Of a DNA stretch of 64,000 nt, positions 21,701-24,700 are shown one piece after another. The stretch lies in NCBI RefSeq assembly GCF_041886205.1, contig NZ_CP169029.1. The stretch is one strand, 5' to 3'. The DNA comes from Escherichia coli (GTDB taxonomy: Bacteria; Pseudomonadota; Gammaproteobacteria; Enterobacterales; Enterobacteriaceae). Each line of letters starts with the position of its first letter. Position 1 is the stretch's first letter. Position numbers: made by a program.

Positions 21701-24700
21701 GCTGAACTGACGAGTCGGGGTACGCACGCCGGACATGATTGGCGTCGGCAGCGAAATTTTAAATGTGGAAACCGCGTCGTAAAAACGCTTCACATATTGC
21801 AGGCGCGTTTCACGCGGGTAGTTCGAGAACAGGCACGCGGCAACCAGAATATAAAGGAACTGGGCGCTCTCATAGATTTCGCCGGTCACGCGGTTCTGTA
21901 CCAGATATTTGCCTTCCAGCTGCTTAACGGCAGCATAAGAGAAGGTCATATCACGGTCGTGATCGATAAACGTGTCCATCTGCTTGAACTCTTCTTCCGT
22001 GTAGTCTTCCAGCAGATGATTATCGTATTTGCCCATCTCGACCATTTTCACCACATGGTCGTACAGCGCAGGCGGCTCAAACTGGCCGTAGGCTTTTTTA
22101 CGCAGGTGGAAGATCGCCAGGCGCGCGGCGAGATACTGATAATCCGGCGCATCACGGGAGATCAGGTCTGCGGCAGCCTTGATAATAGTTTCGTGGATGT
22201 CAGAGGTCTTGATACCGTCATAAAACTGAATGTGGGAGCGCAGCTCGACCTGGGAAATCGAAACGTTATGCAGTCCTTCTGCCGCCCAATCCAGAACGCG
22301 ATGGATTTTGTCGAGATTGATGCGCTCTGTGCTACCGTCGCGCTTTGTCACCAGCAGATTCTGATTCATGTATGTCGTACCTGTTTTTGGAATTCTTTCC
22401 GCAATAGTTTCGTGCAGACTACCTGTAGTACGGGAAGCTGCTTAGAACACTATATATAGGGGGTATGTTTGGGATTCACTGCAAGATAGTGTGAAAATGG
22501 CCCTCTTGCAAGTGCATAACTTTGTGGATAACTCAGGAAGGAAAAAGTGGCTTTCGCGCACCTTAGGTCAGACAAGGTGTCCGGGAAAGTCAATGGGAAG
22601 AGAAAAATTTGTTAAAAATAACTGTTCGGCGATTTCTTGAACGGCAGAATAGGTTGGATAAATTGATATAGATGGTTTATTAATCTTTTTGCTAATGATT
22701 GCAAAAATTGATCTAAGTACGAGTCATCACATAATCTGATGTATCAGTTGTGGTCAATATATAAGCGAATGTAAGCGATTGTTGATGTCGAAATGGTTGT
22801 TTTCTATGCGGTTATTGTTAAATGCGAAGCTATTTTGTTAATTTACCTTATATTATAAGAAAATTATTCATTACTTTAATTTAGTTTAAATATAACTGGT
22901 ATCCCTTAAGGTTATTAACTTGAATTATGACGCACTGATACTATTCATGAAATAATAACAAAATAGCCATTGCATCGGGTTGAGCAATTTACAAAAGAAA
23001 GATAACCCATATTGTATAATGTGATTAAATACGCCGTCTTATATAAAATGATGGTCAGATTAATATGCGGATTATCTTTCTACGCAAGGAGTATTTATCT
23101 TTACTCCCGTCAATGTTTGCATCTCTTTTCTCTGCTAATGGTGTCGCGGCGGCCATTGATTTATGCCAGGGATATGATATCAAAGCGAGTTGTCACGCCA
23201 GCAGGCAAAGCCTTTCAGGCATTACGCAGGACTGGAGTGTCGCCGATGGGCAATGGCTGGTTTTTTCGGATATGACCAATAACGCCAGCGGAGGAGCCGT
23301 ATTTTTGCAACAAGGAGCGGAATTTTCACTATTACCAGAAAATGAAACTGGAATGACTCTGTTTGCCAATAACACCGTTACAGGAGAATATAATAACGGC
23401 GGGGCCATATTTGCTAAAGAAAACTCAACACTGAATCTTACTGATGTTATTTTTTCCGGTAACGTCGCAGGCGGCTATGGTGGCGCAATCTATTCTTCTG
23501 GTACTAATGATACTGGTGCCGTCGATTTACGTGTCACTAACGCCGTGTTTAGCAATAACATCGCTAATGACGGCAAAGGTGGTGCAATTTATACCATTAA
23601 TAACGACGTCTATTTAAGTGATGTTATTTTTGATAACAACCAGGCATATACATCAACAAGTTACAGTGATGGCGATGGCGGGGCAATCGATGTTACCGAT
23701 AATAATAGCGACAGCAAGCATCCTTCAGGTTATACGATAATAAATAACACCGCCTTTACAAATAACACAGCCGAAGGTTATGGCGGGGCGATATATACCA
23801 ATAGCGCGACGGCTCCCTATCTTATTGATATTTCTGTTGATGACAGCTACAGCCAGAACGGCGGCGTGTTAGTCGATGAGAACAATAGCGCAGCAGGCTA
23901 TGGAGATGGTCCTTCCTCTGCGGCGGGTGGCTTTATGTACATCGATTCAAGCCAGGTCAGATTTGATATCGCGGCCAATAAAACTCTGGTCATCGGTAAC
24001 CTGAGTAACGATGGTGCGATCGATTCCATTGCCGGAAACGGGAGTATAAGTAAAACCGGTGCGGGCGAACTGGTGCTCAATGCGGATAACAATAATTTTA
24101 CCGGCGAGATGCGGATCGAAAACGGTGAAGTGACGCTCGGGCGTAGCAATTCGTTGATGAATGTCGGTGATGACCGTTGCCAGAATAATTCACAAAATTG
24201 CTATGGACTGATGGTCGGCAGTATCAGTCATCGGGATGATCAGGCGGAACTGAACGTAGGGGCCACACAGCAAACGTTTGTTCACTCACTGACGGGGTTT
24301 CAGAATGGCACCTTAAATATTGATGCTGGTGGTAACGTTACCGTAAATGCAGGCGGGTTTAGCGGGACCATTGAAGGTGAAGGGCAACTTACCATTGCTG
24401 AGAACGGTAGCTATGTACTGGCGGGGGCGCAGTCGATGGCGCTGACCGGCGATATTGTGGTGGAAGATGGCGCAATGCTCTCGCTGACGGGAAACGCGGC
24501 GGACCTGGCGGCGATGCAGGACGATCCACAGTCAATTGTGTTAAACGGCGGCGTGTTGGATCTCTCCGATTTCACCACCTGGCAGAGCGGTACGGCGGAA
24601 AATGATGGGCTGGAGATTAGTGGCAGTGGCGGCACGGTAATTGGTCAGCAGGATGTTGTCGATCTCTACGGCGGAGACGAACTGCATATTGGCGATGACG

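What the first reader, a model, noticed from the sequence alone, without database searches (positions are those of the whole stretch)
22370..23064. 695 bp AT-rich divergent control region between nrdAB and yfaL with DnaA and NrdR-type elements
This is an unusually long intergenic region. On the nrdA side it has a perfect DnaA box and two NrdR-like boxes. On the yfaL side it has about 500 bp of very AT-rich DNA (long A/T runs at 22800-23050), the kind of tract that H-NS silences, consistent with an adhesin gene that is normally cryptic. The track ORF 23012..23275 overlapping the yfaL start is probably spurious but lies where a leader peptide or regulatory element could be.
Basis: partly seen in the sequence, partly recalled or inferred. 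Interest (0 to 1): 0.25.

Follow-up and report, generated by a model that had tools for sequence, protein, structure and literature searches.

The report
Known nrdAB–yfaL divergent control region
This is the well-studied E. coli control region of the essential ribonucleotide reductase operon nrdAB, joined to an AT-rich, H-NS-bound tract in front of the normally silent adhesin gene yfaL.

Summary
The 695-bp gap (22370-23064) between nrdA (-) and yfaL (+) is real and present in 5423 of 5426 complete E. coli genomes. It has two parts.

1. 22370-22645 is the classical nrdAB promoter/operator. It holds the -35/-10 hexamers, a perfect DnaA box plus a second box abutting -35, three NrdR boxes and two HusR sites. 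The NrdR and HusR sites match published K-12 sequences exactly. That ORF is broken in several lineages, so it is probably not a conserved gene.

2. 22646-23064 (28.8% GC over 22600-23064, the lowest in the window) is a published "promoter island" reported as H-NS-bound in K-12. It belongs to yfaL, which is inserted between ubiG and nrdA in only a few lineages and is hypervariable within E. coli.

ORF 23012-23275 is spurious. No Rfam RNA family matched, and I found no support for a leader peptide.

Verdict: observation confirmed, interpretation supported, already known, low interest.

Side findings:
- Escherichia's nrdA promoter layout matches Yersinia, Serratia and Dickeya rather than Salmonella, Citrobacter and Klebsiella.
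- P1-like phage-plasmids carry a copy of the DnaA-box/-35 segment, already annotated in P1 records.

The parts
20084..22369 (-). nrdA CDS (class Ia ribonucleotide reductase alpha subunit), first gene of nrdA-nrdB-yfaE
   Evidence: ORF list; RefSeq annotation of a 100% identical genome
22378..22384 (-). ACAGGTA, the likely nrdA ribosome-binding region; nearly invariant across Enterobacterales
   Evidence: Alignment of 20 genera
22416..22431 (-). NrdR box 2 (GTACTACAGGTAGTCT). Together with box 1 it forms the pair that binds NrdR with high affinity
   Evidence: Exact match to the published nrdAB_1,2 probe; box pair score 24/32 at 31-bp spacing
22446..22462 (-). NrdR box 1 (CCCCTATATATAGTGTT), the best NrdR-like site in the 64-kb window and conserved across Enterobacterales
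22478..22493 (-). NrdR 'box 0' (TCACACTATCTTGCAG), the classical upstream box overlapping the -10. It is not bound by E. coli NrdR in vitro
22483..22488 (-). nrdA promoter -10 hexamer TATCTT. The transcription start is inferred at about 22476-22479
   Evidence: Sequence position; 17-nt spacer to the -35; conserved in 'type U' genera. The ~110-nt leader length is from my own recollection of Tuggle & Fuchs 1986
22506..22511 (-). nrdA promoter -35 hexamer TTGCAA
   Evidence: invariant in P1-like copies
22511..22519 (-). DnaA box TTATGCACT (1 mismatch to the relaxed consensus TTWTNCACA; 2 to TTATCCACA), abutting the -35
22523..22531 (-). Perfect DnaA box TTATCCACA
   Evidence: conserved upstream of the -35 in 26 loci
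22534..22549 (-). HusR (YnfL) box CACTTTTTCCTTCCTG
   Evidence: Exact match to the site listed in PMC12844172
22569..22584 (+). HusR (YnfL) box CAGACAAGGTGTCCGG, overlapping the inverted repeat CACCTT-N9-AAGGTG (22559-22579)
22586..22645 (-). Conserved nrdA upstream block (CGTTCAAGAAATC...AT-rich run...CATTGAC). This is the outer limit of homology with other genera
   Evidence: Assignment to Fis/IciA/AT-rich cell-cycle elements is my own knowledge of Augustin 1994, Sun 1994 and Han 1998, which are cited but were not readable
22497..22640 (+). Annotated ORF ypaB (47 aa), antisense over the nrdA promoter. Probably not a conserved protein gene
   Evidence: Annotation. ATG reads CTG in B2; in-frame stop in E. 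albertii; stops in two of five P1-like copies. No Pfam or NCBIfam match
22646..23064 (.). AT-rich yfaL-proximal tract, the published H-NS-bound 'promoter island'. Hypervariable or unalignable between Escherichia lineages
22752..22766 (.). Single palindromic match to a Fis consensus I wrote from memory (GGTCAATATATAAGC), about 275-285 bp upstream of the nrdA start. Function not established
22988..23020 (+). Candidate yfaL core promoter signals (TTTACA-16-TATTGT, overlapping TATAAT at 23015-23020). No mapped 5' end found
23012..23275 (+). 87-aa TTG ORF overlapping yfaL out of frame; spurious
23065..26817 (+). yfaL/ehaC, AIDA-I family autotransporter adhesin
   Evidence: NCBIfam equivalog NF007285, 2715 bits; Pfam beta-barrel plus autochaperone domains

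Best explanation
The region is a composite of two control regions placed back to back.

(1) 22370-22645 is the nrdAB promoter/operator. A sigma-70 promoter (TTGCAA-17-TATCTT) is read toward nrdA. Two DnaA boxes sit directly upstream of the -35 and touch it, so DnaA-ATP can modulate RNA polymerase binding. [quoted passage not shown] HusR binds two sites further upstream, and the conserved block at 22586-22645 carries the upstream activating elements. The annotated ORF ypaB is most likely an accidental open frame on the opposite strand of this promoter.

(2) 22646-23064 is the upstream region of yfaL. It is an AT-rich tract rich in TpA steps and packed with promoter-like hexamers. H-NS coats it, which keeps the adhesin gene silent under laboratory conditions. 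It belongs to the lineage-specific yfaL insertion between ubiG and nrdA.

Shown here: sequence identity to the characterised K-12 sites, motif scores above background, composition, conservation pattern, and the insertion and divergence boundaries. Taken from the literature: protein binding and regulatory outcomes. Inferred: the exact nrdA start site, the yfaL promoter, and that ypaB is non-coding.
For: - Gene identities and 100% identity to an annotated E. coli genome.
- The published NrdR probes and HusR boxes match the window exactly. Published Kd for the box 1+2 probe is 96-113 nM, against >6000 nM for box 0+1. Box 0 is not recognised by E. coli NrdR.
- The NrdR and DnaA elements are the top-scoring of their kind in 64 kb.
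- DnaA, Fis and IciA are described as activators, and H-NS and NrdR as repressors, of E. coli class Ia RNR. DnaA-ATP-dependent repression and de-repression are described.
- A CRISPRi study states that ypaB contains the nrdA promoter.
- The AT-rich tract has the lowest GC in the window. All 7 promoter-like hits in 22200-23300 fall inside it (7 against 3.4 +/- 2.2 in shuffles).
- It is a listed promoter island reported as H-NS-bound in all ChIP studies compared.
- In about 65 of 80 Enterobacterales loci ubiG lies directly upstream of nrdA with no yfaL. yfaL sits between them in only 5 of the 80.
- Homology with other genera ends near 22645. Within-Escherichia divergence jumps at the same point: K-12 goes from 99.3% to 94.5%, B2 from 91% to 85%, and the other lineages from 83-96% to unalignable.
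Against: - No binding or transcription was measured on this strain. The H-NS ChIP data are for K-12, whose AT-rich tract is 94.5% identical to this one.
- The H-NS high-affinity motif is not enriched beyond composition, so H-NS occupancy rests on AT content plus the K-12 literature.
- No yfaL transcription start was found in the literature I could search.
- 'ypaB' RNA has been reported as HusR-dependent and as AZT-inducible. Some transcript therefore covers that stretch, and a function for it is not excluded.
Confidence: 0.9

Rival explanations
1. ypaB is a genuine small-protein gene. The region would then be two ordinary intergenic regions (127 bp and 424 bp), with ypaB perhaps co-regulated with nrdA.
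For: It is annotated in RefSeq and in K-12 as b4605. 'ypaB' RNA changes with HusR and with AZT. An equivalent ORF, upfO, is annotated in phage P1, starting 4 nt after the start of the homology just as ypaB does.
Against: The ATG reads CTG in the B2 haplotype, which accounts for about 1190 records in the 80-90% identity band, and PGAP annotates no ypaB in the six B2-type genomes listed. There is an in-frame stop in E. albertii and in two P1-like copies. The best-conserved bases are the -35 and DnaA boxes, not codons. There is no Pfam or NCBIfam family. The simple consensus scan reported no + strand promoter-like site upstream of it. Its CRISPRi phenotype was attributed by the authors to blocking the nrdA promoter.
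Confidence: 0.08
2. The yfaL-proximal tract encodes a leader peptide, attenuator or cis-acting RNA that controls yfaL. ORF 23012-23275 or another small ORF would be the leader.
For: A 13-nt inverted repeat (22996-23008 and 23069-23081) brackets the yfaL start codon, and a second one (23026-23035 and 23088-23097) interleaves with it.
Against: The ORF's TTG start reads TCG in K-12, B2 and E200086, and the ORF is out of frame with yfaL. There is no Rfam hit at E<=1 and no terminator-like hairpin. The tract cannot be aligned between Escherichia lineages that all keep yfaL. Repeats of 10-13 nt are unremarkable in 29% GC DNA.
Confidence: 0.04
3. The whole 695 bp, including the AT-rich tract, is mainly a far-upstream regulatory region for nrdAB (Fis and H-NS sites), and yfaL silencing is incidental.
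For: H-NS is reported to repress nrdAB. One strong Fis-consensus match lies at 22752-22766.
Against: Genera without yfaL regulate nrdA with only about 360 bp of upstream DNA. In E. albertii, L009 and L018 the nrdA promoter is 83-96% identical to the window, yet the distal tract is replaced by unalignable sequence. No sequence-specific nrdA element can therefore be required there.
Confidence: 0.15

Closest known systems
E. coli K-12 nrdAB promoter/operator (DnaA, Fis, IciA/ArgP, NrdR, H-NS, HusR)
   Same: The NrdR probe regions and HusR boxes are identical in sequence, and 22370-22645 is 99.3% identical overall. The -35, -10, DnaA boxes and NrdR boxes 0, 1 and 2 are the same.
   Different: Nothing of substance: this is the same element in another E. 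coli strain. B2 strains differ by a 13-bp deletion in the 5' UTR.
H-NS-bound 'promoter islands' of E. coli (Panyukov & Ozoline 2013, PMC3661553), entry 2342143_534 yfaL/ypaB
   Same: Same locus. It is AT-rich, dense in promoter-like signals, lies next to a gene listed there as foreign, and is reported as H-NS-bound.
   Different: The window's tract is 94.5% identical to K-12's. H-NS occupancy was not measured in this strain.
nrdAB promoter of Salmonella, Citrobacter, Klebsiella, Enterobacter and Pantoea ('type D' in this report)
   Same: NrdR box 1, the ribosome-binding region and the upstream AAGAAATC...TTGAC block are conserved.
   Different: Type D has a TTGTAC-16-TAGAAT promoter, a better box 0 (12/16), and two inverted DnaA boxes downstream of box 1, where Escherichia has NrdR box 2. 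It has no DnaA box upstream of the -35.
'nrdA-like promoter' with DnaA boxes upstream of hot in phage P1/P7 and P1-like plasmids
   Same: Homologous to window 22493-22622 over 115-130 bp at 78-95% identity. The -35 and both DnaA boxes are unchanged in the five copies examined.
   Different: It lacks the nrdA -10, the NrdR boxes and nrdA itself. It sits between upfN/upfO and the late promoter of hot. Its function in the phage is unknown.

Membership tests
DnaA-box-regulated promoter | One or more 9-mers matching TTATNCACA / TTWTNCACA next to the core promoter | tested here: met
   Perfect box at 22523-22531 plus TTATGCACT at 22511-22519 abutting the -35. This is the only close pair in 64 kb.
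DnaA-box-regulated promoter | DnaA binding and a DnaA-dependent change in transcription | not testable with these tools
   Literature only, through reviews. The primary papers could not be opened.
NrdR operator | Two 16-bp partially palindromic boxes (C4/G13) separated by a 15-16 bp linker, at an RNR gene promoter | tested here: met
   Box 1 scores 14/16. Box1+box2 (31 bp start to start) and box0+box1 (32 bp) are the two best pairs in the window.
NrdR operator | Nucleotide-dependent NrdR binding | not testable with these tools
   Published Kd of 96-113 nM for a probe that matches window 22413-22467 over its first 55 of 57 nt; >6000 nM for box 0+1.
H-NS-silenced AT-rich tract / promoter island | AT content far above the genome average over several hundred bp, with many overlapping promoter-like signals | tested here: met
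   28.8% GC against 51.6%. TpA frequency 0.118 against 0.045. All 7 promoter-like hits lie in the tract, against 3.4 +/- 2.2 in shuffles.
H-NS-silenced AT-rich tract / promoter island | Association with a lineage-specific or horizontally acquired gene | tested here: met
   yfaL lies between ubiG and nrdA in only 5 of 80 Enterobacterales loci. Divergence jumps at 22645.
H-NS-silenced AT-rich tract / promoter island | H-NS occupancy in vivo and de-repression in an hns mutant | not testable with these tools
   K-12 ChIP summaries only. The specific H-NS motif is not above the compositional expectation.
Leader peptide / attenuator | Conserved short ORF with a start codon, plus terminator/antiterminator structures upstream of the regulated gene | tested here: not met
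   The TTG start is lost in other lineages. No terminator-like site was found and there was no Rfam match.
Small protein gene (ypaB / P1 upfO) | ORF kept intact across lineages that keep the DNA | tested here: not met
   Start lost in B2, stop in E. albertii, stops in two P1-like copies.
Known cis-regulatory RNA (Rfam) | Covariance-model match, or a structure more stable than shuffled sequence | tested here: not met
   No Rfam hit at E<=1 over 21800-23600. The nrdA 5' UTR folds with a z-score of +0.52.

The most novel reading that the evidence does not exclude
The textbook E. coli nrdAB promoter may not be the native Enterobacteriaceae one. Escherichia, and one Pseudocitrobacter MAG carrying an Escherichia-like yfaL, have the layout found in Yersiniaceae, Pectobacteriaceae and Budviciaceae: a DnaA box upstream of the -35, the -10 inside a degenerate NrdR box 0, and NrdR boxes 1 and 2 downstream. 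Every other Enterobacteriaceae and Erwiniaceae locus sampled that could be classified (50 loci) has two inverted DnaA boxes downstream of NrdR box 1. The nrdA coding sequence, in contrast, is Enterobacteriaceae-like from its first 150 nt. The regulatory region of an essential gene would therefore have been replaced by recombination, possibly as one cassette with the adjacent yfaL. The positions of the DnaA and NrdR inputs relative to the promoter would have been swapped in the process.
Probability: 0.4. Interest if true: 0.4.

Novelty: already known. Interest (0 to 1): 0.15.

Why it matters
As a finding it matters little. It re-identifies one of the best-characterised E. coli promoters and a catalogued H-NS-bound promoter island.

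Its practical value is as annotation guidance:
- ypaB is better treated as the nrdA promoter than as a gene.
- The functional NrdR pair is box 1 plus box 2.

If the side observation holds, the E. coli nrdAB promoter used as the model for coupling dNTP synthesis to DnaA would be an atypical, possibly imported, layout among its closest relatives. Results on DnaA control of nrd should then not be transferred to Salmonella or Klebsiella without testing.

Tried and rejected
- Rfam scan of 21800-23600 at E<=1: nothing.
- RNA fold of the nrdA 5' UTR: no better than shuffles, z = +0.52.
- Terminator scan: none found.
- H-NS motif TCGATAAATT: 2 matches at <=2 mismatches, equal to the Markov expectation of 2.0 +/- 1.4. 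A motif-based argument was dropped in favour of composition.
- Fis consensus written from memory: one match, at 22752-22766, and none in the nrdA-proximal 330 bp. A degenerate consensus is too weak to recover the Fis sites I recall from the older literature.
- Leader-peptide idea for ORF 23012-23275: rejected.
- ypaB as a conserved protein: rejected on ORF integrity.
- A half-site regex test for conservation of NrdR box 2 did not discriminate between the two promoter types, so I make no claim from it.
- Primary papers could not be opened: Cendra 2013, Augustin 1994, Gon 2006, Lobocka 2004.
- One literature search was swamped by unrelated 'HNS...' hits.
- I looked for a remnant of the ancestral ubiG terminator hairpin next to ubiG. 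That spacer consists of REP-like palindromic repeats instead.
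Full report
**What is there.**
Window 22370-23064 is the gap between nrdA (- strand, 20084-22369) and yfaL (+ strand, 23065-26817). A 1.5-kb query across it is 100% identical to E. coli strain wlxctx60, and at least 80% of it is covered in 5413 of 5426 complete E. coli genomes. The 695-bp gap alone is covered in 5423 of 5426. RefSeq annotation gives the order inaA, yfaE-nrdB-nrdA, ypaB, yfaL, ubiG, gyrA. YfaL is a full-length match to the NCBIfam equivalog 'AIDA-I family autotransporter adhesin YfaL/EhaC' and has Pfam beta-barrel and autochaperone domains.

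The 695-bp length is exact. It is the second-longest gene gap among about 33 in 50 kb of the identical genome.

**The nrdA-proximal part (22370-22645).**
Reading the - strand, the elements are:
- -35 TTGCAA (22506-22511), a 17-nt spacer, then -10 TATCTT (22483-22488).
- DnaA box TTATGCACT (22511-22519) touching the -35.
- The perfect DnaA box TTATCCACA (22523-22531).

A single perfect DnaA box is not statistically remarkable (3 in 64 kb). The two boxes do form the only close pair in the window.

There are three NrdR boxes:
- box 0 at 22478-22493, overlapping the -10;
- box 1 at 22446-22462;
- box 2 at 22416-22431.

Box 1 is the best NrdR-like 16-mer in the window (14/16; the next best is 12/16). 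The two best box pairs at the canonical spacing in the window are box 0+1 and box 1+2.

The published K-12 oligonucleotides used to measure NrdR binding match the window. The box 0+1 probe matches exactly at 22442-22499. The first 55 of 57 nt of the box 1+2 probe match exactly at 22413-22467. That work found a Kd of 96-113 nM for box 1+2 and >6000 nM for box 0+1. A later preprint confirms that box 0 is not recognised. The functional operator is therefore box 1 plus box 2, downstream of the inferred start site, not the classical pair.

Two HusR (YnfL) boxes reported in 2026 are also present exactly, at 22534-22549 and 22569-22584. Reviews describe DnaA, Fis and IciA as activators, and NrdR and H-NS as repressors, of this operon. 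They also describe DnaA-ATP-dependent repression and de-repression. The transcription start is inferred at about 22476-22479 from the -10 position and from my recollection of the ~110-nt leader reported by Tuggle & Fuchs. The 5' UTR shows no unusual RNA structure (z = +0.52), and no Rfam family matches.

**ypaB.**
The ORF lies antisense over the -35, the DnaA boxes and the upstream elements. [quoted passage not shown] The evidence against a conserved gene is:
- In the B2 haplotype (about 1190 records in the 80-90% identity band) the ATG reads CTG, and PGAP annotates no ypaB in the six B2-type genomes listed.
- E. albertii has an in-frame stop.
- Two of five P1-like copies have stops.
- There is no family match.

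What is conserved is the promoter DNA. 'ypaB' RNA has been reported to respond to HusR and to AZT, so some transcript covers the stretch. I consider a conserved protein unlikely (about 0.08).

**The yfaL-proximal part (22646-23064).**
- GC is 28.8% over 22600-23064, the lowest 465-bp value in the window. The longest pure A/T runs are only 11 nt.
- TpA steps are 2.6-fold enriched, and A4/T4 tracts occur at about twice the window rate.
- All seven sigma-70-like hits found in 22200-23300 fall in this tract, against 3.4 +/- 2.2 in shuffles.
- The H-NS high-affinity motif is not enriched beyond composition.

The tract is entry '2342143_534 yfaL/ypaB' in the published catalogue of E. coli promoter islands. 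The authors describe these as AT-rich stretches that bind RNA polymerase and H-NS but are largely transcriptionally silent. This entry is marked as H-NS-bound 'according to all studies' and as associated with foreign genes. yfaL phenotypes have been studied through an inserted constitutive promoter.

ORF 23012-23275 is out of frame with yfaL. Its TTG start reads TCG in K-12, B2 and E200086, so it is spurious. No terminator-like structure was found.

**Why the region is long.**
A scan of species-representative genomes with the NrdA N-terminus returned 80 Enterobacterales loci. In about 65 of them ubiG lies directly upstream of nrdA with no yfaL, usually with gyrA beyond it. The ubiG-nrdA spacer is about 360 bp in the Enterobacteriaceae. 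yfaL sits between ubiG and nrdA only in E. coli, E. albertii, a Pseudocitrobacter MAG, strain RIT691 and Rahnella bonaserana.

Homology between Escherichia and the other genera runs from the nrdA start codon to about 22645 and then stops. Divergence within Escherichia jumps at the same point:

| Compared with the window | 22370-22645 | AT-rich tract 22646-23064 | yfaL 23501-24400 |
|---|---|---|---|
| K-12 | 99.3% | 94.5% | 85.7% |
| B2 (strain S6) | 91.3% | 85.4% | 76.4% |
| L009 | 96.0% | unalignable | 76.0% |
| E. albertii (L010) | 89.5% | unalignable | 74.9% |
| Pseudocitrobacter MAG (L018) | 82.6% | unalignable | 67.4% |

The 695 bp is therefore about 275 bp of nrdA regulatory DNA plus about 420 bp that belongs to a lineage-specific, fast-evolving yfaL cassette. 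The ubiG-yfaL spacer consists of REP-like palindromic repeats, by my reading of the sequence. Because the distal tract can be replaced wholesale while the nrdA promoter stays conserved, it is unlikely to carry sequence-specific nrdA elements.

**Side observation 1: two nrdA promoter layouts.**
Anchoring on NrdR box 1 sorts 76 sequences (the window plus 75 of the fetched loci) into two types.
- Twenty-six are 'type U', with a perfect DnaA box 69-79 bp upstream of box 1. Besides the window, these are E. coli, E. albertii, the Pseudocitrobacter MAG, Yersinia, Serratia, Rahnella, Rouxiella, Dickeya, Brenneria, Symbiopectobacterium, Acerihabitans, Limnobaculum and an unclassified Enterobacterales MAG. 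Hafnia paralvei also shows an upstream DnaA box but was not classified.
- Fifty are 'type D', with TTATCCACA immediately after box 1 and, in most of them, an inverted DnaA-like box about 30 bp further on. These are Citrobacter, Salmonella, Klebsiella, Enterobacter, Kosakonia, Kluyvera, Cedecea, Pantoea, Erwinia, Tatumella, Mixta and others.

The Escherichia core promoter aligns with type U at 52-76% identity over 22446-22560, including spacer bases. It aligns with type D at 32-62%. The nrdA coding sequence, in contrast, is closest to Citrobacter and Salmonella from its first 150 nt (89-94%, against 74-77% for Yersinia, Serratia, Rahnella, Dickeya and Brenneria). The promoter is thus discordant with the gene it drives.

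The simplest reading is replacement of the regulatory region in the Escherichia lineage, possibly together with yfaL. I rate this at about 0.4. My taxon sampling within the Escherichia-Salmonella-Citrobacter clade is thin, and I could not check whether this has been described before.

**Side observation 2: a copy on P1-like elements.**
Window 22493-22622 has homologues on 318 PLSDB plasmids and 15 phage records: P7 and SJ46 at 95.4% over 129 bp, and P1 at 82.6% over 115 bp. The copy lies just upstream of hot, the phage homologue of the DNA polymerase III theta subunit.

GenBank M95666 annotates it as an 'nrdA-like promoter' with a DnaA box. The P1 genome record annotates it as '94 pct identical to E. 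coli DNA region containing two predicted DnaA boxes'. So it is known. P1 upfO is the counterpart of ypaB. The -35 and both DnaA boxes are unchanged in all five copies examined, even at 78% overall identity.

**Verdict.**
The region is already known in detail for E. coli K-12. Interest is low. The comparative side observations are the only parts that might be new.

Noticed in passing
window 22446-22560; loci L009-L088, about 330 bp upstream of nrdA: There are two nrdA promoter layouts in Enterobacterales. In Escherichia, Yersinia, Serratia, Rahnella, Dickeya and others (26 sequences including the window) a DnaA box lies upstream of the -35. In Citrobacter, Salmonella, Klebsiella, Enterobacter, Pantoea and others (50 loci) two inverted DnaA boxes lie downstream of NrdR box 1. 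Escherichia disagrees with its closest relatives even though its nrdA coding sequence is Enterobacteriaceae-like from the first 150 nt.
   Followed up: partly
window 22493-22622; L003, L004, L005 (P1-like plasmids), L006 (P1), L008 (P7): A 115-130 bp copy of the nrdA -35/DnaA-box/upstream segment sits just upstream of hot in P1/P7 and in more than 300 P1-like plasmids, at 78-95% identity. P1 records already annotate it as an 'nrdA-like promoter'. P1 upfO is the counterpart of ypaB. The -35 and both DnaA boxes are unchanged in all five copies examined.
   Followed up: partly
window 22646-24400: yfaL and its upstream tract exist as strongly divergent haplotypes within Escherichia. Only 6 genomes are >=99% identical to the window. 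K-12 yfaL is 85.7% identical and B2 76% over 23501-24400. A rare E. albertii-like haplotype (roughly the 23 records in the 60-80% identity band) has an unalignable upstream tract and about 74% YfaL amino-acid identity.
   Followed up: partly
window 22389-22401: The B2-type haplotype (681-bp intergenic region; about 1190 records in the 80-90% identity band) has a 13-bp deletion in the nrdA 5' UTR, between NrdR box 2 and the ribosome-binding site.
   Followed up: no
window 22996-23008 with 23069-23081, and 23026-23035 with 23088-23097: Two interleaved 10-13 nt inverted repeats bracket the yfaL start codon. They could pair in a long yfaL leader, but they may well be chance matches in AT-rich DNA, and K-12 weakens one arm.
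   Followed up: no
window 26818-26944: The ubiG-yfaL 3' spacer consists of REP-like palindromic repeats, by my reading of the sequence. The hairpin that follows ubiG in genera lacking yfaL is absent.
   Followed up: no
window 13736-14730 and 14741-15365: Two further tracts reach 465-bp GC values as low as the yfaL leader (0.288 and 0.31). They lie around the frameshifted 'hypothetical protein' next to a LysR regulator in the matching genome. I did not examine them.
   Followed up: no
locus L018 (Pseudocitrobacter MAG) compared with L021 (P. faecalis): One Pseudocitrobacter MAG carries an Escherichia-type yfaL (71% aa), a ypaB-like ORF and the type-U nrdA promoter. P. faecalis has ubiG-nrdA with the type-D promoter. 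This suggests the yfaL-plus-promoter block moves between genera, or that the MAG contig is chimeric or misassigned.
   Followed up: no
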